From Candidatus Nomurabacteria bacterium (GTDB lineage: Bacteria; Patescibacteriota; Minisyncoccia; Phycocordibacterales; UBA1006), in the NCBI GenBank assembly GCA_020632195.1, contig JACKGA010000003.1:3832-67831 (forward strand): 64,000 nt of DNA, in the 5' to 3' direction. This document shows positions 41,242 through 55,390 of this stretch, piece by piece. A model generated the notes under the pieces. It was not told where the DNA came from. It saw nothing but the letters and a program-made list of their open reading frames with translations, and did not search any database. How positions within the stretch are numbered: the stretch's first letter is position 1; each line of letters opens with the position of its first letter. A program made the translations under genes and the position numbers.

Positions 41242-41257
41242 TATTCCTGCAACACGT

Positions 41258-42505
41258 CTATACGAATTCAACTCGTGGCAACAATCGCATGCGACATAGG
41301 ACGATTTTAACTATAACCAAGAGAATCAATAGCACCCAACCTGGGCGAATAGGCCATGCATTGCGAGCAATATTCCATCGACTCTGATAATTAATACTGA
41401 GATTACCCTCAACCGTTTCGACATCATCTAGCAATGTCTGCTGGGCATCTTCGTTATCGGCAAGTTCGCCGTGTGTGCCAGATACTCGATTAACAAGCAT
41501 AGTGTTTTCTTGTGCAAAATTTACCTTTTCCTGATTTCGAGCTTGGCGCAAGGTGGTGAGTTGTTGTTGATACTGGTCGATATATGAACGCAACTGAGTA
41601 TGTTCATTTGTTCCATCAGCAACCTCGATCAGGGTATCTCGCAATAATGCAATGCGGTCCTGTGCGCCAGCGATTTCTCGATCAAGGCGCGCAATACGTT
41701 GTGAAGAGGTATTTTCAAGATACTCCTGAGAATCAAGAAGCGAGGCAAGATTTTTTATAATTTGCTGTTCTTCTTGTTCGAGTGCTATTTTTTGGTCCAG
41801 CATATTCTGTCCAGAAATTTTTTCTGTATACAATTTGGGGTGAGCAAGCTCGGCAATATCGTCCCGAAAATCTTCAAAACGTGATTTTGGGAGAATAAAA
41901 GAAACATATCCATATTTATTATCACTATTAAACGAATCAATACGACCGCCTAGCCTCCTAATGATGTCCATGGCCTCTTCGGTCATATATGTAACTTTTC
42001 GTGTTTTGATATTCCCATTGTAGCTGATTTTAATAAATTCTCGATTATCTGTGACATTGTTCTCTAAAAAATTTGGCGTATCGAACATCCTGCCTGGCGT
42101 ACGGAAAACACCGGACCCTCCAACATACATTGCTGAAGAAGAATCGATAGTACCGCCTATACCAACGCCCATAGTAGAACCAAGAAGTGAAATACCCAAG
42201 ACAAAGACGACAATAAGTATGAGGCTTATAAGATTACCAAAAAAACGTCGGCGGGGTTTTTTCTTTTCCTCGCCCTGACGTTCTTTCATACGCACAGCAT
42301 TGACGATCAATGACACGCAGGCAATCAATCCTGCTAAAATAGCAGTGGCTGGTAACAGGCTACGCAGTATGTTCATTGTTGAGTATATATCACCCCTAGC
42401 AGCAAACACAATCAGCCCCACTACGACGATGACAATAAGCCAGGCAAGAAAGATTATTGGCGCCGACAAGGCAATACGAATAACGGGTCGTTCTTTTTTC
42501 ATCAT
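41258..42505 (-). CDS. Membrane-anchored coiled-coil protein (possibly DUF4349-like)
   Basis: N-terminal TM helices, central alpha/beta region, long Q/E/L-rich coiled coil, C-terminal TM. Confidence 0.5.
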   Translation of the reverse strand: MMKKERPVIRIALSAPIIFLAWLIVIVVVGLIVFAARGDIYSTMNILRSLLPATAILAGLIACVSLIVNAVRMKERQGEEKKKPRRRFFGNLISLILIVVFVLGISLLGSTMGVGIGGTIDSSSAMYVGGSGVFRTPGRMFDTPNFLENNVTDNREFIKISYNGNIKTRKVTYMTEEAMDIIRRLGGRIDSFNSDNKYGYVSFILPKSRFEDFRDDIAELAHPKLYTEKISGQNMLDQKIALEQEEQQIIKNLASLLDSQEYLENTSSQRIARLDREIAGAQDRIALLRDTLIEVADGTNEHTQLRSYIDQYQQQLTTLRQARNQEKVNFAQENTMLVNRVSGTHGELADNEDAQQTLLDDVETVEGNLSINYQSRWNIARNAWPIRPGWVLLILLVIVKIVLCRMRLLPRVEFV

Positions 42506-42631
42506 ATTTAAAAGATATATTACGTTGCTAATATGAATTATATTGTAACACAAACCCCCGAACCAAAGTCGAGGGTTTGTTTAAATAAATATTCTCTAGA
42601 GCTTCAATAAAACCACGTGACTCGAGTGGAG

Positions 42632-43000
42632 CTATTTGTTTCTTTGGTTAGTGCCATACTTGTTGTCAGTAGATTGGCTTTTTTCTAGAGCAAAAATGAT
42701 TAAGACAAGACTACCGATCAAAGGTATAAAGTTTACAAGAACCCATATCCCACTACGCCCAGTGTCGTGAAGACGTCGTATGAGAAGAGTAAAGTGGACT
42801 ACAATGAGAACCATAACATACAAACCTGCTAATCCCCCCAAAATAATAGCCGCATTACTATTTTCTGGAACAGCTAAAGAAACTAAGCCAATAAGACCTA
42901 TAGTGATAGCTGCAAAAAGAATAAAAAACCAATACTCCGAACGTGATGCGCGACCCTTTATAAGAAAAATATTCTTGAAAGCTTTCAGAAAAAATATCAT
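42632..43000 (-). CDS. DUF805-family membrane protein
   Basis: GRASRSEYWFF and RRLHDTGRSGIW signatures. Confidence 0.8.
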   Translation of the reverse strand: MIFFLKAFKNIFLIKGRASRSEYWFFILFAAITIGLIGLVSLAVPENSNAAIILGGLAGLYVMVLIVVHFTLLIRRLHDTGRSGIWVLVNFIPLIGSLVLIIFALEKSQSTDNKYGTNQRNK

Positions 43001-43044
43001 GTTTAATCTAATCTAAAAAATCGAATCTTTAAATACTCTGTATG

Positions 43045-44328
43045 TTAGTACTGCCGCATCGAAACCTGTGCATCCATTTTCTTAACCAGATCAATAACAA
43101 CAGCCACAACAATCAAAAGACTTGTCCCACCGATAGCAAATGATTGCACACCTGTGATTGACTGGATAATGATAGGGATTACCGCAATCACTCCGAGGAA
43201 GAGTGCTCCGACAAACGTAATACGATTAGCAATAGTCGAAATATAGTCAGTCGTTGCTTTTCCTGGACGTACGCCTGGGATAAAGGCTCCTGATTTTTGG
43301 AGATTTTCTGCCATCGATTCCGGTTCAAAAGTAATAGCGGTATAGAAATAGGTAAAGACAAAGACAAGAATAAAATACACAATCGGGTAGAACCATCCAT
43401 TTGAGAGCAATTGATTGATGAACTGACCGACATTTTGCAGACCAACTGAAGTGCCATTCATGAAGAAGTTTGCCAACATCTGTGGGAAAAGAAGGATAGA
43501 AAGTGCAAAAATGATCGGCATCACACCAGCCATGTTGATACGCAATGGAATGTAAGTAGAGGTTCCGCCGTAGGTCTTGCCACCGCGAGATTGTTTTGCA
43601 TATACCACGGGGACGGGTCGTTCGGCTTCTGTCACAGCAACAATTCCCGCAATAATAATAAACGCAAGTACAACAAAACCAAGATACAGCGGTAATTGTG
43701 ATGGATCATAATTGGCAATAAGCTGTGCAATTGAATTAGGCAGAATCGCCACAATACCCGCAAAGATAAGCAAAGATACCCCATTAGAAATTCCAAATTC
43801 TGAGATAAGTTCACCAAGCCATGTTACGAGCAATGCTCCAGCGATGATAATTATCATATTTACAATAGTCCCTGTAATCCCAAGGCTAGTTATGATTCCC
43901 TGCTGAGTCAAAAGCAAAAGAAGTCCAAAACCTTGAATGGCTGCAATAGGAACCGTAAGGTAGCGCGAGATTTGAGAAAACTTTTTGCGACCAGCTTCAC
44001 CTTCATGGTGATACATCTCTTTGAGGTTCGGTACCATCACTGTCAAAAGCTGCATAATAATAGATGCAGTAATATATGGTCCAACTCCCAACATCACAAT
44101 AGAAAGCTGTGAAAGAGCTCCTCCAGAAAAAATATTCAAAAGTCCAAAAAATTGATTACCTCCTACAAATCCAGCAAGCGCTCCGTGGTCGACACCCGGA
44201 ATAGGAATCGTCGAAAGCAGACGGAATACTGCAAAAATTGCCAAAACAAAGAGCACCCGCTTACGCAAAGATGGGTCGCGGAAGAGGATGCTTACTTTGT
44301 TGAAAAATGCTTGTAACATAGATTTCAA
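43045..44328 (-). CDS. secY: Preprotein translocase subunit SecY
   Basis: 10-TM SecY layout; LGVGPYITASIIMQLL; follows rplO. Confidence 0.95.
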   Translation of the reverse strand: MKSMLQAFFNKVSILFRDPSLRKRVLFVLAIFAVFRLLSTIPIPGVDHGALAGFVGGNQFFGLLNIFSGGALSQLSIVMLGVGPYITASIIMQLLTVMVPNLKEMYHHEGEAGRKKFSQISRYLTVPIAAIQGFGLLLLLTQQGIITSLGITGTIVNMIIIIAGALLVTWLGELISEFGISNGVSLLIFAGIVAILPNSIAQLIANYDPSQLPLYLGFVVLAFIIIAGIVAVTEAERPVPVVYAKQSRGGKTYGGTSTYIPLRINMAGVMPIIFALSILLFPQMLANFFMNGTSVGLQNVGQFINQLLSNGWFYPIVYFILVFVFTYFYTAITFEPESMAENLQKSGAFIPGVRPGKATTDYISTIANRITFVGALFLGVIAVIPIIIQSITGVQSFAIGGTSLLIVVAVVIDLVKKMDAQVSMRQY

Positions 44329-44368
44329 AATGAGTGCTTCAGCGAAGCAAGGTGTTTACGAAATAAAA

Positions 44369-44806
44369 CTAAGAAAGTGAACCACCAGCCTTGGTAATCT
44401 TTTCAGCAGCTGTCTTTGAAGCGGTAATTCCCTGGATTGCAAACTTTTTAGTAAGATCTCCATGCCCCAAAAGCTTGATACCGTTGCGATTCACCGCACC
44501 TGCAGATACCAAACCTTTTTCAATGAGTGTATCTGGCGTAATAGTTGCACCTGTATCAAAAAGTGATTCAAGAGTTGCAAGATTGATAGCAAGCGTATTA
44601 GGCTTATGTACCACAGTACGAGCACGATTCTTACCATGACCACGAAGCTTTGGAATCTTCTTGATCAAATCACGCATCTCCGGACGAATACCATGACCAC
44701 CGTGTTGCTTCTGACCTTTGTGTCCACGACCTGATGTCTTCCCTCGTTTACCGCCACGACCGACACGCTTTTTTGATGTATTTGTTGATGAAAGTGAGTG
44801 TAACAT
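44369..44806 (-). CDS. rplO: 50S ribosomal protein L15
   Basis: KKRVGRGGKRGKTSGRGHKGQ. Confidence 0.95.
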   Translation of the reverse strand: MLHSLSSTNTSKKRVGRGGKRGKTSGRGHKGQKQHGGHGIRPEMRDLIKKIPKLRGHGKNRARTVVHKPNTLAINLATLESLFDTGATITPDTLIEKGLVSAGAVNRNGIKLLGHGDLTKKFAIQGITASKTAAEKITKAGGSLS

Positions 44807-44814
44807 AGGCAGAA

Positions 44815-45492
44815 TTATGATTTTTTAGTATCACGACCAGACGTGGCAGGCTTTTTAGTCTCTTGCTTTTTTTGAGCTGCGGCACCACGTGCTACGACAA
44901 ATGGCTCAAGCGCCTTCATTGCAGCTTTGGCGTTGTTGAGCTGATTACGAGAACGTGAGAGTACGCGAGAAGTGACATCCTTGATACCAGCAAATTCAAG
45001 AACCGTACGCACTGATGAACCAGAAACCAACCCGCGACCAAAATTAGGGCTTAATTCTACGCGTGCTGCTTTGTATTTCGCAGAAACGCTGTAAGGAAGT
45101 GAAAAATCATCAGTAAGTTGGATTTTTATAAGATTTTGCTTTGCAATATTGACCGCTTTCTGAATAGCCTGTGATGTATCATTTGCCTTGGCAAGACCAA
45201 ACCCAACACGCCCACGCTTATCACCGATAACCATACCTACCGAAAAAGAGAAACGACGACCTCCCGCCATGACACGAGTCACACGACGCAAAGAGATAAT
45301 CTTTTGTTCAAATTCAGGCTGTACACGTTCGCGTGTACGACGTGGTGCTTTTGAACGAAAATTGCGTTTGGTGGCACGACGTGGGGTATTTTGTTGACCC
45401 TCTTTTGGCGTGTTCTCAACAGGAGCAGAAGTTTTGTGAGCTTCTGAAGACTGTTGTTCGGTATGAGTTTGTGCTTGTGTTTCGTCTGACAT
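44815..45492 (-). CDS. rpsE: 30S ribosomal protein S5 with ~60-aa N-terminal extension
   Basis: LRRVTRVMAGGRRFSF...VGFGLAKA core; 8 nt from rplO with no rpmD between. Confidence 0.95.
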   Translation of the reverse strand: MSDETQAQTHTEQQSSEAHKTSAPVENTPKEGQQNTPRRATKRNFRSKAPRRTRERVQPEFEQKIISLRRVTRVMAGGRRFSFSVGMVIGDKRGRVGFGLAKANDTSQAIQKAVNIAKQNLIKIQLTDDFSLPYSVSAKYKAARVELSPNFGRGLVSGSSVRTVLEFAGIKDVTSRVLSRSRNQLNNAKAAMKALEPFVVARGAAAQKKQETKKPATSGRDTKKS

Positions 45493-45528
45493 AATCCAAG
45501 TAATAATGAGTAATCTATCGTGAGTATC

Positions 45529-45882
45529 TTAAAATTGCAATCCTGCCTCGCGAGCAGCATCAGCCAGTGCCTGTACGCGACCTGTAAAAATAAATCCACC
45601 GCGATCAAAAACTACACTCGTGATGTTTGCTTTTTGAGCAAGTTCAGCGATGTTTTTCCCCACAGCTTGAGCACGTTCGATTTTGGTGCCGGTAGTTGAT
45701 TTTACATCATTCGCAGCAGCGAGTGTTGTACCTGTCGTGTCATCAATAAGTTGCGCATAGATAAACTTATTTGAACGAAAAACCGCAAGACGAGGGCGCT
45801 CTGAAGTGCCAGCTACACGTGAACGAATACGGGCATGACGTCGAAGGCGTTGTATGATTTTGTTATCAGTAGCTTGTGACAT
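45529..45882 (-). CDS. rplR: 50S ribosomal protein L18
   Basis: [34 protein letters not shown]. Confidence 0.95.
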
Positions 45883-45905
45883 ACACAAATAAAATTCTTA
45901 AAAAA

Positions 45906-46442
45906 TTAAGCTGACTTCTTACCTTGTTTGCGACGAATATATTCACCTTGGTAGCGAATACCTTTTCCTTTATACGGTTCTGGTTTTTTCTTGGCGCGAA
46001 TGTCCGCAGCAAATGAACCAACCAACTCTTTATCAATACCTGCAATGGTAAGTTGTTGTTTTTCAGCCGTAGCCGTGATGCCTTCTGGAATAGCGATGAC
46101 AACAGGATGAGAAAAACCAGCTTGTATATGAATTTCACTTCCTTTTACTTCCCAACGAAATCCAACACCTTCGATTTCTAGTACTTTACTATATCCTTCT
46201 GTTACTCCCACAATCATATTGATAATATGTGAAGCATAGGTCCCCCAGAGGCCCTTGGTAAAGAGATCTTCTTTCTGTGGAGTAACGGTGATGGTTGCGC
46301 CATCAATAGTTATTGCTACGATATCAGTCTTGAAAGGGCGAGTAAGTTCCCCCTTTGATCCTTTGATCGTAAGCATGCCTCCATCAAGAGTTGCAGTAAC
46401 GCCTGCTGGGATAGTGATAGGTTGTTTTCCAAGTCGACTCAT
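45906..46442 (-). CDS. rplF: 50S ribosomal protein L6
   Basis: MSRLGKQPITIPAGV...; two-domain L6 repeat. Confidence 0.95.
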   Translation of the reverse strand: MSRLGKQPITIPAGVTATLDGGMLTIKGSKGELTRPFKTDIVAITIDGATITVTPQKEDLFTKGLWGTYASHIINMIVGVTEGYSKVLEIEGVGFRWEVKGSEIHIQAGFSHPVVIAIPEGITATAEKQQLTIAGIDKELVGSFAADIRAKKKPEPYKGKGIRYQGEYIRRKQGKKSA

Positions 46443-46468
46443 ATTTGCGAAATGATTAAAAAAATAAA

Positions 46469-46867
46469 TTACCAGAGCTCGAAAAGCATTTCTCCACCGA
46501 CCTGTTCTTTGCGGGCTTGTTCTCCAGTCAAAATTCCTTTTGGTGTTGAGATAAAGATTTTCCCAAAACCATTTTTTACCGGACGAACATTCTTTGATGA
46601 TATATACATACGACGTGATGGTTTCGACACACGCTTTATCGTTGAAATTTTCGAATTCCCATTTGCCTGGTAAGCCAAAGTGACTTCCAACATATCGGCA
46701 CCGCGATTACGATCACGCTTCTGATAGCCAGCAATAAAACCAGCATCAAGCAGAGCCTTGGCAATGGCAACCTTGTGGTTTGAAAAAGGAACGAGCACAC
46801 TCTCTTTGTGAGCTATGCCACCATTTTTGATTGTGTTGAGCATGTTTGCAATAACATCCATAAGCAT
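46469..46867 (-). CDS. rpsH: 30S ribosomal protein S8
   Basis: [13 protein letters not shown]...; C-terminal GGEMLFELW. Confidence 0.95.
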
Positions 46868-46869
46868 TT

Positions 46870-47055
46870 TTACCAGCTTGATTTGCGAACTCCTGGGATT
46901 TTTCCCTCATTCGCAAGGGCACGGAAACAAATACGGCACAATCCAAAATCACGCATATACGCACGTGGTCGCCCGCAACGGAAACAACGATTTACTTGAC
47001 GTGTAGAAAATTTTGGTTTTTTTCGCGAAGCTGCGATTAATGATTTTTTTGCCAT
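46870..47055 (-). CDS. rpsZ: 30S ribosomal protein S14 type Z (zinc-ribbon form)
   Basis: 61 aa; [22 protein letters not shown] (CxxC...CxxC). Confidence 0.95.
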
Positions 47056-47276
47056 ATATTTATTTAAAAAATAATAGAACCTTTGTACTCAAGACATGCT
47101 ACTCGTGTGATATCTCGTATAGCTAGGATAAAGAGGTGAGTTGATACTCAGATATTTATCAAGATATACGGATCATAGACGAGCCGTCTTTTGAAAGGTA
47201 CGCGGGCATACTATACGAGTACAAAAAAAAGTCAAGTGAAGAGTTATTTTTTAATAACATACGAATACATTGAACC

Positions 47277-47311
47277 AAAAAAAGCCCTAACGTATACGCT
47301 AGGGCTTTTTA
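47277..47311 (-). terminator. Intrinsic terminator of the T9SS-CTD gene
   Basis: aaaaaaagcccta-n10-tagggcttttt. Confidence 0.7.
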
Positions 47312-47325
47312 TATTCAGTAAAAAT

Positions 47326-49119
47326 CTACTGAATAATAATTTTTTGGGATCCTCCTTGGTTCCCGATTTGTATAAAATAAATACCAGGATCTATTTCAAG
47401 GTTTAGATAATTTTTTCCTTTAGCAATTATCTGTTGCCAGACAATTCTTCCAGATACATCACACACCTTTATCTCTTCAGCATTCTCTACTTCTATAATT
47501 CCCTGACCATTTAGTAATGGATTTGGATACACAGAGAAGGCTACGTCAGAAATATTTTGTATTCCCGTAGGAGTGCCAACTTGATATCGATTTGACGATA
47601 TCTTGTTTGCACCACATGGGCCAAGATACGTCACAGCAACGCCTACTACACGCATATATATCGCCCCATTGAAATGATCAGTGGTTTGAATATTCATATT
47701 TGTATTGCCATCAATCAGGGTTGATTGCTGGGCAAGCAGCGGGGTTGTACCAATCGAATCCTGATTCGCATCCTCAAGGACTACATATAAATTGTATATA
47801 ACGCTATCTACATCGTAGTAGCGCAATACAATATTATGCGTCCCATTTTGAATGGTCACGAACTGATCGTCAAGCATAAACTCAGGACCGGAATACTCAC
47901 CAAGATAGACATGGTCCTCTTGGTCGTAATCATAACTTCCTAATGAATCAGTTATTGACACATTTACACTGATCTCTCCATGTCCCGTATATTGAACATA
48001 GATAGTATCAGTACCGTGACCGACAGCAATGGTAGCATCTGGCGTAGCTGAGCATCCAGTAGATGCCACATTCACTGCGTAATCAATAGAAGCTGAATAT
48101 TCTGTAGAATATGCAATTCCTATTTCCCCATTTCCATTGTTGAATATATCAATCCAATATGGAAGTGGTGGTGTAATTATGGGAGCTGGATCTGTCATAA
48201 AATCAAGACAACTGGTGTCCCCACCATATGACTGAGTATGTAATACAAAGCACACGGCATACTGAGTACTGTCTGATAGACCTGTTAAGAAATACCAAGC
48301 AGTGTCCCCGCTTGCAATAGCAGTCATACCAACCAATCCTCCGTTTACGTAACACTCCATGTTACCCATGGTAGAGCTTCCGAGGTCGCCAATAGCATAC
48401 ACGGTAGCGCTAGAATCGGTAATATTGATTATGCCGGTGTCCATGATGGTAGGTCCGATTATAGGAAGTGTTTTGAATTGAATAACACTTTCATCTACTC
48501 CAAGTCCTGTAATCTTTGCATGGGTAAATACCGTAGTATCTGCTAATGCATTTATTACGAAGTCCTGATACCCAATGCCAACAACAGGCACCGTAGTCGG
48601 ACTGCTATATGTTGGGGGACCATCATAATCCCACTCGAACAACAACCATGCTGGATCGAGGGTCGAGTAATATACTCGCACCGTCCCACCAAATTCAGAT
48701 GAATCCAACACTTGGATATTGGTTATCTGTGGCGGACCAGGATCCAATGGCGTAGTAAATGGCCATGGGGCAGAGGTGTCTGCGCCTACTGTATTATTCA
48801 CAGTAAGTGTAATTTCATACTGCGTATTTCCATTCAACCCAAGAGAACCAAATGATATGGTATCTTGAATTAAAAGGTAGGAGGCAGTATCAAAATAAAA
48901 TGTTGTCGAGGTCCATGCAATGGCACCTGTTGCAACATTTTTAATTTTAAATACTCCTGTTGTAGCAGTATCATTTCCCGTAGACATTTCAAACATAACA
49001 TCCAGACTATCTGGTGAATGAGAAATTACATGAGTAAACGATACTGATGGATCAACTATCTGTGTATGTGCACAAAAAATAGCCATCATTAAACTGAAGG
49101 TGAAGATAAATTTTTTCAT
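47326..49119 (-). CDS. Secreted multi-domain protein with T9SS type A C-terminal sorting domain (Por_Secre_tail-like)
   Basis: Signal peptide MKKFIFTFSLMMAIFCAHTQ; C-terminus VYPNP...VCDVSGRIVWQQ...IDPGIYFIQIGNQGGSQKIIIQ. Confidence 0.8.
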   Translation of the reverse strand: MKKFIFTFSLMMAIFCAHTQIVDPSVSFTHVISHSPDSLDVMFEMSTGNDTATTGVFKIKNVATGAIAWTSTTFYFDTASYLLIQDTISFGSLGLNGNTQYEITLTVNNTVGADTSAPWPFTTPLDPGPPQITNIQVLDSSEFGGTVRVYYSTLDPAWLLFEWDYDGPPTYSSPTTVPVVGIGYQDFVINALADTTVFTHAKITGLGVDESVIQFKTLPIIGPTIMDTGIINITDSSATVYAIGDLGSSTMGNMECYVNGGLVGMTAIASGDTAWYFLTGLSDSTQYAVCFVLHTQSYGGDTSCLDFMTDPAPIITPPLPYWIDIFNNGNGEIGIAYSTEYSASIDYAVNVASTGCSATPDATIAVGHGTDTIYVQYTGHGEISVNVSITDSLGSYDYDQEDHVYLGEYSGPEFMLDDQFVTIQNGTHNIVLRYYDVDSVIYNLYVVLEDANQDSIGTTPLLAQQSTLIDGNTNMNIQTTDHFNGAIYMRVVGVAVTYLGPCGANKISSNRYQVGTPTGIQNISDVAFSVYPNPLLNGQGIIEVENAEEIKVCDVSGRIVWQQIIAKGKNYLNLEIDPGIYFIQIGNQGGSQKIIIQ

Positions 49120-49221
49120 TTTATTTTAAATTTAAAGTTACAAAAAGTTCAAAAGATCCAGCCCATTGGCTTTCTCTTTATTTCATAATCTTTATACCAA
49201 AATAAAGTAGTTTGTCAAGGT

Positions 49222-49250
49222 TTTACTCTCATCGCCTACTGCGCTATGAT
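49222..49250 (+). promoter_or_regulatory. Sigma70-like promoter of the DsbA-like gene
   Basis: TTTACT, 17-nt spacer, TATGAT; the ORF-track ATG at 49246 lies inside the -10 box, which favours the ATG at 49282. Confidence 0.4.
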
Positions 49251-49281
49251 GGAAGGTGTTATTTACTTAATCATATATTTT

Positions 49282-49983
49282 ATGGAACATACCACTACAC
49301 ACACTGCATGGCTCGATACTCCTAAGGCAATCCTGCTCGGGGCATTGATTATTGGACTTGGACTTGCCCTCGGACTCGGACTCGGCGGAGGAGAACGCGT
49401 GAAGAAAGAAAAAGTACGCATGTGGCAAGTTGATGCTGTCTTGAAAGAAAATAATATCAATAAAAGTGATTACCAAGCTTGTCTAGAAGATGGAGCGGCA
49501 GAAGCACGAGTGCAAGCTGATATGGATCGCGCTGTTGACCTAGGCATCACAGGGACACCAGGAAATCTTATCGTACATATTCCAACAGGACGAAGCGTAT
49601 TGCTCCCTGGAGCGTTGCCTTTAAATATCTTTAATCAAGCTATTGAAGCACTGCGCACAGGAGGAACTCTTGAGGGAATAGATATTATGCAGACGACTGC
49701 GACGGTTGATGAGGATGAGCATATTCTAGGAAATCCTGATGGAGACATTATGATATTTGAATATTCTGATTATGACTGTCCATTCTGCGTACGTGTCCAT
49801 GAGACACTTCACCAATTGATTCAGCAGGATACCTCTGTTGCTTGGGCGTATCGCCACTTCCCATTAACAGGACTCCATCCACAGGCTCTTCCTAAAGCTT
49901 TTGCCAGCGAGTGTATTGCCGAGCTTGGTGGAGAGGAAGCCTTCTGGTCATTCACTGATACAAACTTTGCTGGAAAACTCTAG
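49282..49983 (+). CDS. Membrane-anchored DsbA-like thiol:disulfide oxidoreductase with apparently permuted domain order
   Basis: TM anchor; then the DsbA C-terminal-type segment (LGITGTPGNLIV...GALPLNIF); then the N-terminal-type segment (ILGNPDGDIMIFEYSDYDCPFC...FW). Confidence 0.65.
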   Translation: MEHTTTHTAWLDTPKAILLGALIIGLGLALGLGLGGGERVKKEKVRMWQVDAVLKENNINKSDYQACLEDGAAEARVQADMDRAVDLGITGTPGNLIVHIPTGRSVLLPGALPLNIFNQAIEALRTGGTLEGIDIMQTTATVDEDEHILGNPDGDIMIFEYSDYDCPFCVRVHETLHQLIQQDTSVAWAYRHFPLTGLHPQALPKAFASECIAELGGEEAFWSFTDTNFAGKL

Positions 49984-50007
49984 AAAAAGAATATTGTGCT
50001 GAATATT

Positions 50008-50061
50008 AACACCCCGTGCCTCCTTTTTGAAAAATGAATCAAAGGTACGGGGTGTTTTTTG
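50008..50061 (+). terminator. Intrinsic terminator (long hairpin)
   Basis: aacaccccgt...acggggtgtttttt, with inner stem ccttt/aaagg. Confidence 0.7.
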
Positions 50062-50071
50062 TTTCTGAATT

Positions 50072-50081
50072 TGTGTATACT
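50072..50081 (+). promoter_or_regulatory. TGTGTATACT -10 element, 10 nt before the ATG
   Basis: tgtgtatact at 50072-50081; ATG at 50092. Confidence 0.45.
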
Positions 50082-50091
50082 CCTCTTACTT

Positions 50092-50631
50092 ATGCAAACG
50101 ATTAAAGAAATTTTTACCCAAAAAAAATATGTATTTCTTTTTTGGATAGTAGCGATATCTCTGCTCTATCTCCTGATCTGGCTTAATTCACTGCCCGTGA
50201 TTACTTCCTTTTTTGCGCTCGTGTCTGGATTTTGGAGTAAGGTAGCTTTTTTATTTTCACTCATTACAACGCTCGGAACTAATTTCACAGTATTTTCAAT
50301 CATAACGACATTGATTATTGTTCTTTTATTCTCTTTGAATATTACCATGATGGCATATTATATTCGATATCGCCGAACTCACTCGTCTCAAATTATTTTT
50401 GGTAAAGGATTTGCTGGATTTATCGCCGGACTTTTTGGTATGGGCTGTAGCGCCTGCGGGGCGGCAGTCTTAGGGCCACTTCTCGCTGCGCTTGGCGTGG
50501 GAGGGCTTCTGACTATTCTTCCTTTTCACGGACAAGAGTTTACTCTTATTGGAATTATCCTCTTAGTTATTTCTCTCTGGTCATTGAATAAAAAAATGAA
50601 GAATACGGTATGTGAAATAGAAGAAGCCTAG
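50092..50631 (+). CDS. Polytopic membrane protein with intramembrane CxxC (GMGCSACG), unclassified
   Basis: About 5 TM helices; CSAC inside a Gly-rich helix; one further Cys near the C-terminus (TVCEIEEA). Confidence 0.55.
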   Translation: MQTIKEIFTQKKYVFLFWIVAISLLYLLIWLNSLPVITSFFALVSGFWSKVAFLFSLITTLGTNFTVFSIITTLIIVLLFSLNITMMAYYIRYRRTHSSQIIFGKGFAGFIAGLFGMGCSACGAAVLGPLLAALGVGGLLTILPFHGQEFTLIGIILLVISLWSLNKKMKNTVCEIEEA

Positions 50632-50683
50632 CTAGCCTTTGGTATCTTGTATATTGTATAGCGTTTCTTTATACTCTTTCTAT

Positions 50684-51496
50684 ATGGAAAACACCCAAAC
50701 GTCACCCGAATCAACTGTGATTCCTATTAGTCGCGCAGACCAGTATCGTACCGCGGGAGAACTGATTGAGAAATCACGCCCAAATGACATGTTTTATGTC
50801 ATGATAGTACTCTCATCAATCATTATCGCGGGAGGTATTCTCACCAATAGTTTAGCGATTATTATTGGAGGAATGCTTGTTACTCCACTCCTCACTCCTA
50901 TTCTCGTTGTTGCTCTTGCGCTGGCGACAGGAGAGCTTGCCCTTATGAAAAGCACAATTCAACTTCTCCTGAAGTCTATCGGAGCTATTGTCGGGGGATC
51001 ACTAGTACTTGGTTTTATTTTTGGAGGAGATGTACAGTTCCCGATTGTCACTAACACGATGACCGCTACCTTCCTCTATTTTATTATTGCGGTTGCTTCT
51101 GGTATTGCGGTGACATACGCATGGGTCCGCAAAGAAGCGAATGAGGTCCTCCCTGGTATCGCTATTGTAGTCTCTTTAGTCCCTCCGTTGTCATGGGTTG
51201 GCGTCGCGATTGCTCGTGGACATTTTGATATTGCACTTACCTTTGGTATTATCTTTATACTCAATTTTATTGGGATTATTCTGGGAAGCCTTATCGTCTT
51301 TTCACTTTCACAATTCAATCATGACCGCGTTCACAAAGCTATCGAGCGTAAACATGAGCAAATCATTGAAAAAGAGCTGAAAGAAAAAGAGGAAAAAGCT
51401 GCCCAAAAAAAAGCGCGTGACGAAGCTTCCTCTGCCCCACAAGTACAGGAAGAAGATGAGTCTGAAAGTATTCAGGACATCACCGATGAACGCTAA
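50684..51496 (+). CDS. DUF389-family membrane protein with acidic/basic C-terminal tail
   Basis: TNSLAIIIGGMLVTPLLTPI pattern typical of DUF389; TATACT box 8 nt before the ATG. Confidence 0.65.
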   Translation: MENTQTSPESTVIPISRADQYRTAGELIEKSRPNDMFYVMIVLSSIIIAGGILTNSLAIIIGGMLVTPLLTPILVVALALATGELALMKSTIQLLLKSIGAIVGGSLVLGFIFGGDVQFPIVTNTMTATFLYFIIAVASGIAVTYAWVRKEANEVLPGIAIVVSLVPPLSWVGVAIARGHFDIALTFGIIFILNFIGIILGSLIVFSLSQFNHDRVHKAIERKHEQIIEKELKEKEEKAAQKKARDEASSAPQVQEEDESESIQDITDER

Positions 51497-51530
51497 GTTT
51501 ATTATTACCTATAATTAAAAAATATTTTTT

Positions 51531-52064
51531 ATGAAAGGATCAACTCTTACACTTACCATTACAATTATCATTATAGCAGGAGCTATTCTTGCAGGAGTAC
51601 TGGTAGGAAACCGCCCAAGTATCTATGAAGACTTTGCTGAATGTATTGCAGATTCTGGAGCAACATTCTATGGAGCATTCTGGTGTCCTCACTGTCTTGA
51701 TCAGAAATCAATGTTTGGCAAAGCAGCCGACTCACTTCCCTATGTCGAGTGTTCTCTTCCCGACCGTTCCGGACAAACCGAGGAATGTACTGAAGCGGGA
51801 ATTACTGGATACCCGACATGGGACTATCAAGGAGATCGCTTCTCAGGAACTCTTTCTCTAGAAGTACTTGCAGCACTCACTCAGTGTGAGCTTCCACCAG
51901 AGCATGTCTCATCTATTGAAGTCACCCAAGAAGACCTTGAACAAATGAAGCAAAATCCAGAAGAAACCTCACAGGCCATAGAGACTGAGCCGCAAAATAC
52001 GATTTCAGTAACTGGATCAAATACCGTCTCTATCGGCGATGTGAATCTTACTATCAGCGAATAA
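51531..52064 (+). CDS. Membrane-anchored thioredoxin-like protein of the VKOR-associated type (no VKOR domain)
   Basis: GATFYGAFWCPHCLDQKSMFGKAADSLPYVEC...ECTEAGITGYPTW closely resembles the Trx domain fused to bacterial VKOR. Confidence 0.8.
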   Translation: MKGSTLTLTITIIIIAGAILAGVLVGNRPSIYEDFAECIADSGATFYGAFWCPHCLDQKSMFGKAADSLPYVECSLPDRSGQTEECTEAGITGYPTWDYQGDRFSGTLSLEVLAALTQCELPPEHVSSIEVTQEDLEQMKQNPEETSQAIETEPQNTISVTGSNTVSIGDVNLTISE

Positions 52065-52082
52065 CCTAAAGAATCAAAATAT

Positions 52083-52670
52083 ATGTTGAATTATAATGAA
52101 GTAAAACAGCGTTCGCGTATTATTGTCGAAGATGAACCTTGGGAAGTAGTAGAGGCTCAGGTGTCACGCAAGCAACAAAATAAACCCGTCAACAAAACCA
52201 AGCTCAAAAACATGATCTCGGGACGTGTCATTGAATACACCTTCCACGTGTCTGATCGGGTACATGAGGCTGAAGTTGAAAAGCGTGATATGACTTACTT
52301 ATACTATCAGGATAAGAAAGGTGAATACTGGTTTGCAGATGCTGATAATCCTAAAAACCGTTTTACACTTGCTAAAGAACTTATTGGTGACGGGATCAAG
52401 TATATGACTGAAAATTCTACTGTTATAGCTCTCGTCTTTCGCCAAGGAGATGGGGAACAAATTATTGGTATCGAATACCCTATGAAAGTAGAACTGGCAG
52501 TTACTGAAGCCCCGCCAAACATCAAAGGAGACACGGCTACAGGGGGGCGTAAGGTAGTCACGGTAGAGACAGGCGCAACCGTCAATGCTCCACTCTTTAT
52601 CAATACAGGCGATGTTATCTTGGTAAATACCGAGACAGGTGATTATTCCGAACGCGTTGAGAAAAATTAG
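52083..52670 (+). CDS. efp: Elongation factor P
   Basis: Three-domain EF-P layout; TKLKNM..G, GDTATGG.K, ETG.Y..R. Confidence 0.9.
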   Translation: MLNYNEVKQRSRIIVEDEPWEVVEAQVSRKQQNKPVNKTKLKNMISGRVIEYTFHVSDRVHEAEVEKRDMTYLYYQDKKGEYWFADADNPKNRFTLAKELIGDGIKYMTENSTVIALVFRQGDGEQIIGIEYPMKVELAVTEAPPNIKGDTATGGRKVVTVETGATVNAPLFINTGDVILVNTETGDYSERVEKN

Positions 52671-52673
52671 ATC

Positions 52674-52705
52674 AAAAAAACCGAGCTAACAGCTCGGTTT
52701 TTTAT
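52674..52705 (+). terminator. Intrinsic terminator
   Basis: aaaaaaaccgagct-aac-agctcggtttttt. Confidence 0.75.
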
Positions 52706-52714
52706 TTCAAAAAT

Positions 52715-52749
52715 AAAACCGCTTTAAAAAAATTATTAAAGCGGTTTTC
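52715..52749 (-). terminator. Intrinsic terminator of the rpsF-ssb-rpsR operon
   Basis: aaaaccgcttta-n11-taaagcggtttt. Confidence 0.7.
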
Positions 52750-52856
52750 GCAAAAGTATTAAAAATTATAAAAAACACGATAATGAGAATAATAGGAAAA
52801 AGCACTCCGTACCTATCTATGGTACGGAGTGCTTTTGATGATCTCATGCTTGCGAA

Positions 52857-53060
52857 TTATGCTTCGATAAAGGGAAGCAATCCCATAAAGCGAGCATTCT
52901 TGATCGCTCGAGCAAGTGCACGCTGGTTCTTACGAGAAACTCCTGAACGCTTTGCAGGCATGATTTTACCTGAGGTTGTCAAAAATTTTCGTAGAAGTTC
53001 GACATTTTTATAGTCGATGTGCTTGATGCCGTTTTGTTTAAAATAACATTGTTGTTTCAT
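52857..53060 (-). CDS. rpsR: 30S ribosomal protein S18
   Basis: IDYKNVELLRKFLTTSGKIMPAKRSGVSRKNQRALARAIKNAR; start moved to MKQQCYF. Confidence 0.9.
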   Translation of the reverse strand: MKQQCYFKQNGIKHIDYKNVELLRKFLTTSGKIMPAKRSGVSRKNQRALARAIKNARFMGLLPFIEA

Positions 53061-53076
53061 AGTTCGTATATACGAT

Positions 53077-53523
53077 TTAGAAAGGAATATCTTCTGGATT
53101 AATATCATCTTCTGGGTACTCGATGACATCAAGCGAATCATCCTGCGATGATGGCGATGCTCCAGAGCCAGAAGAAGATGCCCCATCCCCGACTTTGTTC
53201 CCGAATTGAACTGTATCAGCGACAATCTCGGTACGATATTTTTTCACACCCGTTGATTGATCATCCCAGCTACGAGTCTGCAGGCGTCCTTCGATCAAGG
53301 CTTGTTGTCCTTTTTTCAGATACTGTGCAGATGTCTCAGCTTGGCGTCCAAATACTACAATATTGTGATATTCGACAGCTTCTTTTCGTTCGCCTGTTGC
53401 ACTATCTTTCCAATAGCGATTTGTCGCGAGGCTAAAAGTCGTCACCTTTGAACCAGAAGGAAGTGACTTCAATTCTGGATCACGTGTAAGATTTCCAATA
53501 ATCGTTGCTTTATTAAGATACAT
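53077..53523 (-). CDS. ssb: Single-stranded DNA-binding protein
   Basis: MYLNKATIIGNLTRDPE OB-fold start; acidic tail ending DDINPEDIPF. Confidence 0.9.
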   Translation of the reverse strand: MYLNKATIIGNLTRDPELKSLPSGSKVTTFSLATNRYWKDSATGERKEAVEYHNIVVFGRQAETSAQYLKKGQQALIEGRLQTRSWDDQSTGVKKYRTEIVADTVQFGNKVGDGASSSGSGASPSSQDDSLDVIEYPEDDINPEDIPF

Positions 53524-53593
53524 ATAATTAAATGATTAACGCAAAAAACTAATAATGCCTTCATAATACTCTGCAGGAAGTATTGATGCAAGC

Positions 53594-54115
53594 TTATGCT
53601 TCGTCTTCTTCTGATGTCATTTCGTCGAGCTTGTCATCGAGCTCTGCTTCATCAACCTCTTCGTCAGATTCTTCATCAGTATCATCTGATTCATCCATGG
53701 TCAATTTATGTGAATCAGGTGTTGCCATTTCATGCTGCGAAGCAGAAGCAAGCGGCTTCGCATTAATCATCGTATCTTCACGAACGGTCTTGGTCACCAG
53801 ATGGCGCAAGATGTCTTGACGACGTTCGAATAATGCTTCGATTTCTGCAATCAACTCAGGATTGAGTGCAAACTTGATCCAACCAAAATATGCGGTGTCG
53901 TAAAAAGCATTTTTGTTTTCTAAGACCTTCATCATAGTATAGGCTAAGTCGATCAATTGAGGTTCGCCTTCGCTAATATGTTCTGCGCCGAGCTCAGCAA
54001 TTTTTGCTTTGATCTCTGACAGAGTATTGATGGCGTCGTCTTGTGTTTTGTTGGGCAACATCAGATAGCCCACCTCATACACACGCGGTTCGCGCATTTC
54101 CATAGTTTTTTCCAT
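53594..54115 (-). CDS. rpsF: 30S ribosomal protein S6 with long acidic C-terminal extension
   Basis: YEVGYLMLPN start pattern and operon position; exact ATG ambiguous (54115/54103/54097). Confidence 0.7.
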   Translation of the reverse strand: MEKTMEMREPRVYEVGYLMLPNKTQDDAINTLSEIKAKIAELGAEHISEGEPQLIDLAYTMMKVLENKNAFYDTAYFGWIKFALNPELIAEIEALFERRQDILRHLVTKTVREDTMINAKPLASASQHEMATPDSHKLTMDESDDTDEESDEEVDEAELDDKLDEMTSEEDEA

Positions 54116-54257
54116 AGAAAGTTTTAAACAAAAGATAAAAAATCGAGTATTCCTCAATCATTAATCTTTTGTTCTGTTATCCAGTTACTGATAAAAATGT
54201 GTCCCGCCTCATTTCAAACAGATGGAGAAATGACTGGAGATGACGGGAATGGGTTGG

Positions 54258-54286
54258 AGTATAGCAGAGAATGATATAATTGTAAA
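54258..54286 (-). promoter_or_regulatory. Sigma70-like promoter of the rpsF operon (implies a ~140-nt leader)
   Basis: Minus strand TTTACA, 17-nt spacer, TATACT. Confidence 0.5.
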
Positions 54287-54331
54287 GATTTTATTTGACT
54301 TTTCAAACAAAAAAAACGTACGATCTAAATC

Positions 54332-54529: not shown

Positions 54530-54542
54530 CATAGTTATATTT

Positions 54543-55346: not shown

Positions 55347-55352
55347 ACAAGT

Positions 55353-55362: not shown

Positions 55363-55390
55363 GCATCGACAGAAAAGCTACAGCACCCCA

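What the first reader, a model, noticed from the sequence alone, without database searches (positions are those of the whole stretch)
47326..49119. Bacteroidota-style T9SS cargo gene in a CPR-like context, at the break point of the ribosomal operon
The last ~70 aa fit the type A T9SS C-terminal sorting domain pattern: FSVYPNPLLNGQGIIEVENAEEIKVCDVSGRIVWQQIIAKGKNYLNLEIDPGIYFIQIGNQGGSQKIIIQ. The N-terminus is a classical signal peptide. T9SS is known from Bacteroidota/FCB lineages. Nothing else in the window looks FCB-like, and no T9SS component is present. The gene is visibly more AT-rich than both flanks and has its own terminator (47277-47311). It occupies the position where rplE-rplX-rplN normally precede rpsZ. 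Possible explanations are horizontal acquisition (perhaps from a host or neighbour), re-use of the CTD beta-sandwich without T9SS, or a chimeric contig join.
Basis: partly seen in the sequence, partly recalled or inferred. Interest (0 to 1): 0.6.

Follow-up and report, generated by a model that had tools for sequence, protein, structure and literature searches.

The report
T9SS-type sorting domain in CPR bacterium
A small clade of ultra-small Nomurabacteria-like (CPR) bacteria, thought to lack an outer membrane, stably encodes an exported protein of tandem beta-sandwich domains ending in a genuine Bacteroidota-type "type IX secretion" sorting domain, which therefore probably works without that secretion system.

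Summary
ORF 47326-49119(-) encodes a 597-aa protein with a classical signal peptide, about five Fn3/Ig-like beta-sandwich domains and a C-terminal type A T9SS sorting domain (CTD). The CTD scores 44.3 bits on TIGR04183 (cutoff 23) and 31 bits on PF18962 (cutoff 27). A confident model of it best matches solved T9SS cargo CTDs. The contig is CPR: NCBI labels its proteins Candidatus Nomurabacteria, and all 80 GTDB relatives of the neighbouring EF-P come from Patescibacteria-labelled bins except one probable mis-binned contig. It is not a misassembly or a recent transfer. Five independent assemblies place 32-43%-identical homologs at the same spot, directly upstream of rpsZ, each with its own terminator. 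GC and GC3 are normal, so the "AT-rich" claim fails. The passenger family is tiny and absent from GTDB representatives. The CTD is its best-conserved module. All members keep Gln at +1 of the signal peptide, a Bacteroidetes hallmark, which suggests an old Bacteroidota origin. No T9SS part lies in the window, but the whole genome could not be checked. Best reading: a fast-evolving, Sec-exported surface protein that re-uses the CTD without T9SS. NCBI already annotates the domain; I found no paper discussing it in CPR.

The parts
47326..49119 (-). Cargo gene: 597-aa exported protein (signal peptide, ~5 beta-sandwich domains, type A CTD). NCBI calls the start 10 codons downstream (587 aa), which truncates the signal peptide.
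49063..49119 (-). Signal peptide, aa 1-19 (MKKFIFTFSLMMAIFCAHT), with predicted cleavage before Gln20. Gln at +1 is conserved in all five family members.
   Evidence: Sequence reading; alignment; AF2 helix 2-17. No signal-peptide predictor was available.
47533..49062 (-). Passenger, aa 20-529. D1-D3 (aa ~21-312) are confidently modelled Fn3/Ig-like beta-sandwiches. D4-D5 (aa ~313-512) are all-beta but low confidence. A Pro-rich linker separates D3 from D4. Cys356 and Cys502 are conserved.
47329..47532 (-). Type A T9SS C-terminal sorting domain, aa 530-597. It has a seven-strand Ig-like sandwich and keeps motifs YPNP, G-Y and the terminal K..I.Q.
47277..47311 (-). Intrinsic terminator of the cargo gene (14-bp stem plus T7). 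An equivalent hairpin plus T-run follows the homolog in all four other loci.
47208..47235 (-). Promoter-like site (TTGACT-16-TAGTAT) for the rpsZ operon. It is conserved in all five loci as TTGAC(T/A)...TATAGTATGC.
47056..47207 (-). Conserved structured 5' leader of the rpsZ-rpsH-rplF... operon: a long hairpin with compensatory pairs. It is adjacent to the cargo gene but not part of it.
46870..47055 (-). rpsZ (type Z S14), first gene of the truncated spc operon downstream of the cargo gene.
49246..52064 (+). Divergently transcribed block: DsbA-like oxidoreductase, CxxC membrane protein, DUF389 and a thioredoxin-like CPHC protein. It is syntenic with the cargo in the window, L002 and L007, and absent next to EF-P in 80 other CPR genomes.

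Best explanation
The gene encodes a lineage-specific, Sec-exported cell-surface or extracellular protein of a small Nomurabacteria-like (Patescibacteria/CPR) clade. A cleavable signal peptide is followed by about five tandem Fn3/Ig-like beta-sandwich domains, with no catalytic fold, and then a genuine type A T9SS C-terminal domain.

Shown:
- The domain identity, by sequence and by fold.
- The CPR context.
- A fixed chromosomal position in five independent assemblies, between a disulfide-oxidoreductase block and a truncated spc operon that starts at rpsZ.
- Monocistronic organisation: the cargo has its own terminator, and the rpsZ operon has its own conserved promoter and leader.
- Native base composition.
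- Fast divergence of the passenger, with module shuffling.
- The CTD is the best-conserved module.

Inferred:
- The gene, or at least its D4-D5-CTD half together with a Bacteroidetes-style signal peptide (Gln at +1), entered the clade's ancestor from a Bacteroidota donor long ago and has since been inherited vertically.
- Patescibacteria are thought to have no outer membrane and no T9SS genes are seen here. The protein is therefore exported by Sec alone, oxidised by the neighbouring DsbA-type system, and stays outside the cytoplasmic membrane.
- The CTD is kept under selection as a structural, anchoring or ligand-binding beta-sandwich and not as a T9SS secretion signal.
- The whole protein acts as an adhesin-like surface fibre involved in contact with a host cell, a substrate or phages.
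For: - Domain: TIGR04183 44.3 bits (cutoff 23) and PF18962 31 bits (cutoff 27). All four homologs also pass, at 28.7-43 bits. A PDB sequence hit to a Por CTD chain, 8glj_D, has E 1.3e-3. The CTD model has pLDDT 89.7 and seven strands. Its top PDB matches are T9SS cargo CTDs: 8glk_D, PorZ 5m11, 8gl8_D, mirolase CTD 8qb1 (TM 0.74, 1.9 A), RgpB and 8glj_D.
- Passenger: D1-D3 have pLDDT 80-90. Foldseek hits are tandem FN3/Ig ectodomains, MG domains and the Aureispira GhpA fibre, with no enzymes. There are no Pfam hits apart from the CTD.
- CPR context: NCBI names. S5 and L15 are adjacent with no L30 between them. The 80 GTDB EF-P relatives are all from Patescibacteria-labelled bins except one probably mis-binned contig, with best identity 60% against 74-76% inside the cargo clade.
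- Not chimeric or recent: L001 is identical over 16,265 nt. L002, L006, L007 and L089 come from other samples and have the homolog upstream of rpsZ; L002 and L007 also keep the DsbA block and EF-P. GC and GC3 are within 1 SD of the window's genes.
- Rarity: among 1.84e9 representatives, only P0002-P0005 are full-type relatives. GTDB representatives hold none. The Trx/DUF389/CxxC/DsbA/cargo/rpsZ side of EF-P is found only in this clade.
- Constraint on the CTD: mean pairwise identity is 41%, against 34-39% for D1-D5 and 30% for the linker. YPNP, G.Y and the terminal basic residue are retained.
- Bacteroidota origin: Gln(+1) in 5 of 5 members. Gln(+1) averages 71% in Bacteroidetes but is below 9% in most Chlorobi (PMC5837995). 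It appears in 2 of 210 crude predictions for related CPR loci. P0007 shares aa 329-576 plus a CTD and sits beside a Peptidase_C1-PKD-Fib_succ_major gene.
[quoted passage not shown] No T9SS part was found in the window or in about 1.3 Mb of related loci; the loci were scanned for the CTD only.
Against: - The rest of the genome could not be searched for SprA/Sov, PorV, PorU, PorZ or GldKLMN. The absence of T9SS and of an outer membrane rests on 64 kb plus general knowledge of the phylum.
- The conserved CTD motifs are described as surface-exposed candidate T9SS-binding interfaces (PMC10202324). Their retention and the CTD's relatively high conservation are not obviously explained by a purely structural role.
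- The function (adhesin, anchoring) is inferred from architecture only. No adhesive domain, ligand or anchor partner was identified, and the D4-D5 model is low confidence (pLDDT ~50).
- No donor lineage was identified. Gln(+1) cleavage sites were assigned by eye, and my signal-peptide heuristic is crude.
- The DsbA linkage may simply reflect the close relatedness of the three loci that show it.
Confidence: 0.6

Rival explanations
1. Host-directed CTD. The clade lives on or with a Bacteroidota host, and the retained CTD engages that host's T9SS surface machinery (the PorV shuttle or the PorU/PorZ attachment complex). This would dock the epibiont's fibre on the host surface or get it anchored there. 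In this reading the CTD works like a T9SS signal, but in trans.
For: The CTD is the most conserved module, and it keeps motifs described as exposed T9SS-binding interfaces. The Bacteroidetes-style Gln(+1) is retained in all members. The passenger is fibre-like and fast-evolving with module exchange, as expected for a host-contact protein. Many Patescibacteria are described as obligate epibionts (PMC12102498 abstract).
Against: There is no evidence for any host. T9SS recognises CTDs from the periplasmic side during export, not from outside. [quoted passage not shown] Motif conservation can be explained by fold constraints.
Confidence: 0.06
2. Recent horizontal transfer of a Bacteroidota or FCB cargo gene into this one genome, so that the CTD is a non-functional passenger relic.
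For: The domain is typical of FCB lineages. Gln(+1) is present. The nearest CTD-only hits include proteins in non-CPR-like contexts (P0009, P0131).
Against: Base composition is native. Homologs at 32-43% identity occupy the same locus in four other metagenomes. No outside protein matches the passenger beyond P0007 at 29%. The CTD is not decaying: it is the best-conserved module and passes curated cutoffs in every member.
Confidence: 0.04
3. Assembly or binning artefact. The cargo gene belongs to an FCB organism and was joined to a CPR contig, or the contig itself is not CPR.
For: The sequence comes from a MAG. One Bacteroidota-labelled MAG (Crocinitomicaceae, L016) carries a CPR-type EF-P-S18-SSB-S6 contig, which shows that mis-binning occurs between these groups.
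Against: Both junctions are reproduced with 0 mismatches by a different assembler. The cargo-to-rpsZ junction recurs in four further samples (L002, L006, L007, L089), and the DsbA-to-cargo junction in L002 and L007. Flanking genes on both sides are CPR-type, and the terminator, promoter and leader are co-conserved with the cargo.
Confidence: 0.02
4. This CPR clade has an unrecognised CTD-dependent pathway of its own, for example a surface-attachment or sortase-like step that recognises the CTD. The CTD would then still be a sorting signal, but for a non-T9SS machine.
For: There is strong relative conservation of the CTD and of its C-terminal motif. Further CTD proteins may exist in other CPR-like contigs: P0010 in L090 scores 33.3 bits and lies between two fibre genes, and the L024 ORF scores 23.6 bits. 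No other anchor (TM segment, LPXTG) is visible at the C-terminus.
Against: No candidate machinery was found next to the gene. The CTD is very rare in related CPR DNA: one borderline hit in about 1.2 Mb. That is unlike a general sorting system with many substrates. The taxon of L090 is unverified.
Confidence: 0.15
5. False-positive domain call: an unrelated Ig-like beta-sandwich that happens to score on the CTD models.
For: Scores are moderate (31 bits on Pfam against a cutoff of 27). Ig-like sandwiches are common, and Foldseek also lists cellulase Ig-like domains at similar E-values.
Against: Two independent curated models are passed end to end, and five diverged homologs all pass. The YPNP, G.Y and terminal K..I.Q motifs are present at the extreme C-terminus. 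About 120 CTD-only hits were recovered by phmmer across 1.84e9 proteins. The best structural matches are T9SS CTDs.
Confidence: 0.03

Closest known systems
Type A CTD cargo proteins of the Bacteroidota type IX secretion system (TIGR04183 / PF18962; e.g. RgpB, PorZ, mirolase, F. johnsoniae NucA and FspA)
   Same: It has an N-terminal Sec signal peptide with Gln at +1, a modular passenger, and an extreme C-terminal ~70-aa seven-strand Ig-like domain with motifs B (YPNP), D (G.Y) and E (basic residue in the last strand). It passes both curated HMMs, and the modelled fold best matches solved cargo CTDs.
   Different: The host genome is a Patescibacteria/CPR lineage, which is thought to have no outer membrane, LPS or T9SS. 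No T9SS gene lies in the window. It appears to be a single-copy gene and not one of tens of substrates. Secretion dependence, CTD cleavage and A-LPS anchoring are untested and mechanistically implausible here.
[quoted passage not shown]
   Same: It has a stalk of tandem Ig/Fn3-like domains ending in a Por_Secre_tail domain, with fast sequence divergence and modular exchange.
   Different: In that survey the Por_Secre_tail anchor is found 'mostly in Bacteroidetes'. Here no recognisable adhesive head domain was identified, the protein is short (597 aa), and the anchor mechanism cannot be the T9SS one.
Bacteroidetes Q-rule substrates (PMC5837995, PMC10653852)
   Same: Gln immediately follows the predicted signal-peptidase I site in all five family members.
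   Different: The rule is described as Bacteroidetes-specific and depends on a glutaminyl cyclase. No cyclase was seen in the window, and Gln(+1) looks rare among other exported proteins of related CPR loci (2 of 210, crude estimate).
Canonical spc ribosomal-protein operon (rplN-rplX-rplE-rpsN/Z-rpsH-rplF-rplR-rpsE-rpmD-rplO-secY)
   Same: The order rpsZ-rpsH-rplF-rplR-rpsE-rplO-secY is kept downstream of the cargo gene.
   Different: The operon starts at rpsZ with its own conserved promoter and structured leader. rplN, rplX and rplE are elsewhere. rpmD (L30) is absent, which is a known CPR trait (my own knowledge). adk and map are detached from secY.

Membership tests
T9SS type A CTD domain family (TIGR04183 / PF18962) | Match to the curated HMMs above their cutoffs | tested here: met
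   TIGR04183 44.3 bits against 23; PF18962 31 bits against 27. Homologs score 28.7-43 bits.
T9SS type A CTD domain family (TIGR04183 / PF18962) | Domain located at the extreme C-terminus of a protein that has an N-terminal Sec signal peptide | tested here: met
   The domain spans aa 530-597 of 597. The signal peptide was read from the sequence and from homolog alignment. No dedicated predictor was available.
T9SS type A CTD domain family (TIGR04183 / PF18962) | Seven-strand Ig-like 3+4 beta-sandwich fold | tested here: met
   The AF2 model has pLDDT 89.7 and seven strands. Best PDB matches are 8glk_D, 5m11, 8gl8_D, 8qb1, 4ief and 8glj_D. Caveat: the input alignment consisted of CTD sequences.
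T9SS type A CTD domain family (TIGR04183 / PF18962) | Conserved motifs A, B, D and E (PMC10202324) | tested here: met
   YPNP, G.Y and a basic residue in the terminal strand are kept in all five members and in the 61-sequence CTD alignment. Motif A was not assessed separately.
Functional T9SS cargo (secreted by a type IX secretion system) | T9SS core genes (SprA/Sov, PorV, PorU, PorZ, GldK/L/M/N, PorT/SprT) in the same genome | tested here: inconclusive
   None are present in the 64-kb window by Pfam, or in the called genes of L001-L007. Absence is expected from the phylum.
Functional T9SS cargo (secreted by a type IX secretion system) | Diderm envelope with an outer membrane and anionic LPS for anchoring | not testable with these tools
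   [quoted passage not shown] No outer-membrane biogenesis genes were seen in the window.
Functional T9SS cargo (secreted by a type IX secretion system) | CTD-dependent secretion, with CTD removal by PorU | not testable with these tools
   This needs proteomics or genetics.
Bacteroidetes Q-rule SPI substrate | Gln at +1 of the signal-peptidase I site | tested here: met
   The five members read AHT|Q, NA|Q, YG|Q, YT|Q and HA|Q. Cleavage sites were assigned by eye.
Bacteroidetes Q-rule SPI substrate | Glutaminyl cyclase encoded in the genome | tested here: inconclusive
   No such Pfam hit was found among the window ORFs scanned. The whole genome was not available.
Candidate Phyla Radiation / Patescibacteria genome context | Flanking conserved genes group with CPR genomes | tested here: met
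   NCBI names. The EF-P relatives in GTDB are all from CPR-labelled bins except one probably mis-binned contig. EF-P-S18-SSB-S6-TatD-MetRS synteny is shared with them. S5 and L15 are adjacent without L30.
Fibrillar adhesin-like protein | Stalk of tandem Ig/Fn3-like domains plus an identifiable adhesive domain | tested here: inconclusive
   The tandem beta-sandwich stalk is supported. No adhesive head domain was identified.

The most novel reading that the evidence does not exclude
The CTD is retained under selection because it is still a recognition module. Either it docks onto the T9SS surface components (PorV or the PorU attachment complex) of a Bacteroidota host, so that the epibiont's fibre is bound or even covalently anchored to the host surface. 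Or it feeds an unrecognised CTD-dependent surface-sorting step in monoderm CPR cells. Either would be the first functional use of a T9SS sorting domain outside a T9SS-bearing diderm.
Probability: 0.15. Interest if true: 0.8.

Novelty: new variant of a known kind. Interest (0 to 1): 0.42.

Why it matters
The type A CTD is treated in the literature as a secretion and attachment signal specific to the T9SS of Bacteroidota/FCB diderms. Here a bona fide CTD is fixed at one chromosomal locus and is under at least as much constraint as the rest of the protein. The lineage that carries it is thought to have no outer membrane and therefore no possible T9SS.

This implies one of two things. The domain may have a T9SS-independent role as a structural, anchoring or binding module. 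That would caution against reading 'T9SS type A sorting domain-containing protein' annotations as evidence for a T9SS or for FCB affiliation in MAGs. Alternatively, it may mediate contact with T9SS-bearing neighbours, which would give a concrete, testable handle on host association for an uncultured Paceibacteria clade.

The finding also documents an old Bacteroidota-to-CPR transfer in which the Bacteroidetes-style signal peptide was retained.

Tried and rejected
- A word-indexed homolog search with the CTD alone found nothing. The same search with the family alignment returned only the query's own entry (P0001) and one unrelated gingipain-like protein. Both were uninformative.
- A GTDB scan with the family alignment found no relative.
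- The exact-sequence look-up of my 597-aa ORF failed because databases hold the 587-aa call. The look-up of the 918-aa ORF also failed.
- P0006 (1005 aa, E 1.6e-24) was rejected as spurious. It is a sushi/CCP-repeat protein that matches a short Pro-rich stretch 14 times.
- Cluster look-ups gave no taxon names for the relatives or for L090. BLAST of L090 proteins against my CPR loci gave no hits except P0010 against the cargo, so L090's CPR status is unverified.
- afdb50 was unavailable, so I could not get organism names for the structural neighbours of the CTD.
- A permissive Rfam scan of the cargo-rpsZ spacer gave only sub-threshold hits driven by the terminator hairpin.
- My heuristic signal-peptide predictor is noisy, with many hydrophobic +1 residues, so it is used only as weak evidence.
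- The L024 ORF's passenger is unrelated to the cargo.
- Literature searches combining T9SS or type IX secretion with CPR, Patescibacteria, Parcubacteria, Saccharibacteria, DPANN or Nomurabacteria found no paper addressing CTDs in these groups.
Full report
**1. Observation**

The ORF at 47326-49119 on the minus strand exists and encodes 597 aa. Its last 68 residues match both curated type A sorting-domain models end to end. TIGR04183 scores 44.3 bits (cutoff 23, E 1.3e-11, model 1-72/72). PF18962 scores 31 bits (cutoff 27).

The N-terminus, MKKFIFTFSLMMAIFCAHT|QIVDP, has the n/h/c layout of a Sec signal peptide. It is modelled as a helix at residues 2-17 and aligns with equivalent N-termini in all homologs. 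The NCBI record for the same protein (P0001, 587 aa, 'T9SS type A sorting domain-containing protein [Candidatus Nomurabacteria bacterium]') starts at Met11. That start removes half of the signal peptide and is probably a mis-call.

The terminator claimed at 47277-47311 is real. It has a 14-bp stem, -24.2 kcal/mol, z = -6.55 against shuffles, and is followed by T7.

The claim that the gene is visibly more AT-rich than its flanks does not hold. The gene has GC 0.404 and GC3 0.323. The window's 48 long ORFs average 0.424 +/- 0.029 and 0.377 +/- 0.062. Only the two intergenic spacers are AT-rich.

**2. Context**

Downstream on the same strand lie rpsZ, rpsH, rplF, rplR, rpsE, rplO and secY. S5 and L15 abut, with no L30 between them. 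rplN, rplX and rplE are not anywhere in the 64 kb. adk and map sit about 18 kb from secY. The ribosomal supercluster is therefore fragmented at both ends, not only where the cargo gene sits.

Upstream and divergent is a block of a DsbA-like oxidoreductase, a CxxC membrane protein, DUF389 and a CPHC thioredoxin-like protein. EF-P follows, then S18-SSB-S6-TatD-MetRS.

Pfam scans of essentially all sizeable ORFs show small-genome housekeeping content and no T9SS component. An HMM I built from 126 CTDs finds no second CTD in any six-frame ORF of the window. The window also holds a 23S-5S pair without a 16S gene or tRNAs.

**3. Whose genome is it?**

NCBI labels both the cargo and EF-P (MCB9809110.1) as Candidatus Nomurabacteria bacterium.

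As an independent check, I scanned one genome per GTDB species with an EF-P alignment. It returned 80 loci. All are in Patescibacteria/CPR bins (Nomura-, Pace-, Campbell-, Kaiser-, Wolfe- and Vogelbacteria, and Patescibacteria labelled 'Saccharibacteria'), except one contig in a Crocinitomicaceae bin that carries the same CPR-type synteny and is probably mis-binned.

The S18-SSB-S6-TatD-MetRS side of EF-P is shared with nearly all of them. The best EF-P identity in GTDB is 60%, against 74-76% among the cargo-bearing loci. The cargo clade is therefore a distinct Nomurabacteria-like group that is not represented among GTDB species representatives.

**4. Not an artefact and not recent**

A Logan assembly of SRR12358675 (L001, 16,265 nt) is identical to window 40072-56336 across both junctions. 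Four other metagenomes carry homologs at 32-43% identity in the same place:
- L002 (ENA ERZ28654599): S6-SSB-S18 / EF-P / Trx / CxxC / DsbA / cargo / rpsZ.
- L007 (JGI Ga0307935): EF-P / Trx / DUF389 / CxxC / DsbA / cargo / rpsZ.
- L089 (ENA ERZ27315550): cargo / rpsZ / S8 / L6.
- L006 (JGI Ga0075163): cargo plus the same downstream spacer.

In all five loci the cargo is followed by a hairpin plus T-run terminator. After that come a TTGAC(T/A)...TATAGTATGC promoter-like element and a conserved structured leader before rpsZ. The cargo is thus its own transcription unit, and the truncated spc operon has its own promoter.

Neighbouring proteins are 55-91% identical between the window and L002, whereas the cargo is 42% (N half) and 32% (C half) identical. 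This is the pattern of a fast-evolving surface protein that is inherited vertically.

None of the 80 other CPR genomes has the Trx/DUF389/CxxC/DsbA/cargo/rpsZ block next to EF-P. The arrangement arose in the ancestor of this clade.

**5. The protein**

A full HMMER pass over 1.84 billion representatives found only P0003, P0004, P0005 and P0002 as full-type relatives. It also found P0007, which shares aa 329-576, and about 120 proteins that match only the CTD at E 1e-6 to 1e-3. P0006 is a spurious repeat match.

The AF2 model built from the five-sequence alignment is confident for aa 20-310, which form three beta-sandwich domains, and weak for the rest, which is still all-beta. Foldseek returns tandem FN3/Ig ectodomains (gp130, RPTPs, fibronectin, Dscam), MG domains and the Aureispira GhpA fibre, with no enzyme fold. 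Profile search of PDB sequences adds weak Dscam FN3 hits and a Por CTD chain.

A separate model of aa 517-597, built with 60 CTD sequences, has pLDDT 89.7 and seven strands. Its best PDB matches are T9SS cargo CTDs: NucA and FspA CTDs in the F. johnsoniae translocon complexes 8glk and 8glj, PorZ 5m11, mirolase CTD 8qb1 (TM 0.74, 1.9 A) and RgpB.

Within the family the CTD is the best-conserved module. Its mean pairwise identity is 41%, against 34-39% for D1-D5 and 30% for the linker. YPNP, G.Y and a basic residue in the last strand are retained. All members pass TIGR04183.

The family is mosaic. In L002, D1-D3 is 65-72% identical to P0003, while D4-CTD is 69-78% identical to P0004. The junction is at the Pro-rich linker, where L002 also has a 1-nt frameshift. 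This is either recombination between modules or a co-assembly chimera of two strains.

**6. Origin**

All five members have Gln immediately after the predicted signal-peptide cleavage site. According to PMC5837995, this 'Q-rule' averages 71% of SPI substrates in Bacteroidetes but is below 9% in most Chlorobi, and is not general in the FCB group. In related CPR loci my crude predictor finds Gln(+1) in 2 of 210 cases.

P0007, the only outside protein with passenger similarity, combines a YD-repeat N-terminus with a CTD. It lies next to a Peptidase_C1-PKD-Fib_succ_major gene, which is an FCB-like context. The nearest CTD-only hits I could place are mixed. P0009 and P0131 are in non-CPR-like contexts. 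P0010 lies in a compact housekeeping block of an NCBI MAG, between two YadA_head/Peptidase_S74 fibre genes. That MAG could be another CPR, but I could not verify it.

I infer an old transfer from Bacteroidota into the clade's ancestor. No specific donor can be named.

**7. Mechanism**

Steps shown:
- An exported, disulfide-capable protein (Cys356 and Cys502 conserved; DsbA-type block adjacent).
- All-beta multidomain architecture.
- A genuine CTD under constraint.
- Monocistronic expression.

Steps inferred: T9SS needs an outer-membrane translocon and LPS anchoring. Patescibacteria are proposed to lack an outer membrane (PMC12102498), and no T9SS gene is seen here. Export therefore most likely stops at Sec, and the CTD serves another role as a structural cap, an anchor to the cell's own envelope, or a binding module. 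I commit to a T9SS-independent, adhesin-like surface fibre, with overall confidence about 0.6.

One tension remains. The conserved CTD motifs are described as exposed candidate T9SS-binding surfaces (PMC10202324), and they are retained here. This leaves room for two less likely readings: a CPR-specific CTD-recognising step (about 0.15), or engagement of a Bacteroidota host's T9SS surface components (about 0.06). The second is weakened by the reported incompatibility of CTDs even between two Bacteroidota genera (PMC11285876).

**8. Comparison and novelty**

As a domain, this is a member of TIGR04183/PF18962: every sequence and fold criterion I could test is met. As a functional T9SS cargo, membership is not established. 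The machinery criterion is unmet in the accessible sequence and implausible for the phylum, and secretion and cleavage are untestable here.

NCBI's pipeline already names the protein by its domain, so the domain call itself is not new. I found no paper discussing T9SS CTDs in CPR, Patescibacteria or DPANN. From memory, and unverified here, database hits of this domain outside FCB lineages do occur sporadically.

I rate this a new variant of a known kind: a known sorting domain, stably maintained and constrained, in a lineage where its known machine cannot exist. Interest is moderate at 0.42. It is a useful caution for annotation and a testable lead on CPR surface biology, but its function remains inferred.

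Noticed in passing
window 47056-47235(-); L002 6160-6321; L007 8240-8400; L006 2025-2180; L089 2040-2209: A conserved promoter-like element (TTGAC(T/A)-N17-TATAGTATGC) and a ~130-150-nt structured leader lie upstream of rpsZ in all five loci. RNAalifold gives 29 pairs, 7 of them with compensatory changes. No Rfam family matches. It is a candidate ribosomal-protein (S8?) autoregulatory leader for a spc operon that starts at rpsZ.
   Followed up: partly
L002 4238-6032 (frameshift near 5200-5208): The L002 homolog is split by a 1-nt frameshift at the Pro-rich D3/D4 linker and is a mosaic. D1-D3 is 65-72% identical to P0003, and D4-CTD is 69-78% identical to P0004. This is either module recombination in the family or a co-assembly chimera of two strains.
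   Followed up: partly
window 49090-49119(-): The NCBI entry for this protein (587 aa) starts at Met11 and so lacks half of the signal peptide. All homologs support the upstream ATG at 49119. No Shine-Dalgarno motif is visible before either this gene or rpsZ.
   Followed up: partly
L090 10001-11686 (NCBI GCA_964450735.1, CAYVDC010000007.1): P0010 is a 561-aa protein with an ...SHA|Q signal peptide and a CTD (TIGR04183 33.3 bits), similar to the cargo over aa 411-595. It sits between two YadA_head/Peptidase_S74 fibre genes in a compact PheST-GyrB-ThrRS housekeeping block. This may be a second CPR-type lineage with a CTD protein, but the taxon could not be verified.
   Followed up: partly
L024 9243-9905(-): In a different CPR-labelled GTDB genome, a 220-aa secreted ORF (...ASA|Q) directly beside EF-P has a partial CTD that just passes TIGR04183 (23.6 bits against 23). 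Its passenger is unrelated to the cargo.
   Followed up: partly
window 49246-52064(+): A DsbA-like protein, a 190-aa membrane protein with a GCSACG motif and no family hit, DUF389 and a CPHC thioredoxin-like protein form a block. It is conserved next to the cargo in L002 (without DUF389) and L007, and absent beside EF-P in 80 other CPR genomes. It may be an extracytoplasmic disulfide-formation module.
   Followed up: partly
window 33890-37461(-): The 23S rRNA spans 3304 nt against a 2925-nt model, so it carries about 380 nt of insertions. It is followed by 5S, with no 16S gene or tRNA anywhere in the 64 kb.
   Followed up: no
window 57144-59009(-): A 621-aa exported protein with 10 Cys and no family assignment also has Gln at the predicted +1 (...NTSRA|QVSPY). 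It resembles the signal-peptide end of the L002 cargo homolog (...STNA|QVAPS).
   Followed up: no
window 18443-19622(-): Two nucleoside-diphosphate kinase genes lie in tandem (202 and 196 aa). Each gives two matched stretches to the NDK model.
   Followed up: no
L016 (JBLIKX010000024.1): A contig binned into a Crocinitomicaceae (Bacteroidota) MAG carries CPR-type EF-P-S18-SSB-S6 synteny, with EF-P 55% identical to the window's. This is probably CPR contamination of a Bacteroidota bin.
   Followed up: no
window 19719-20405(-); L090 7283-9880 and 11781-14153: A 228-aa exported window protein shares, by eye, an N-terminal 'PGDS.L.P.C..G..NCY' motif with the two L090 fibre proteins. BLAST of the L090 fibre proteins against all window ORFs gave no hit.
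   Followed up: no
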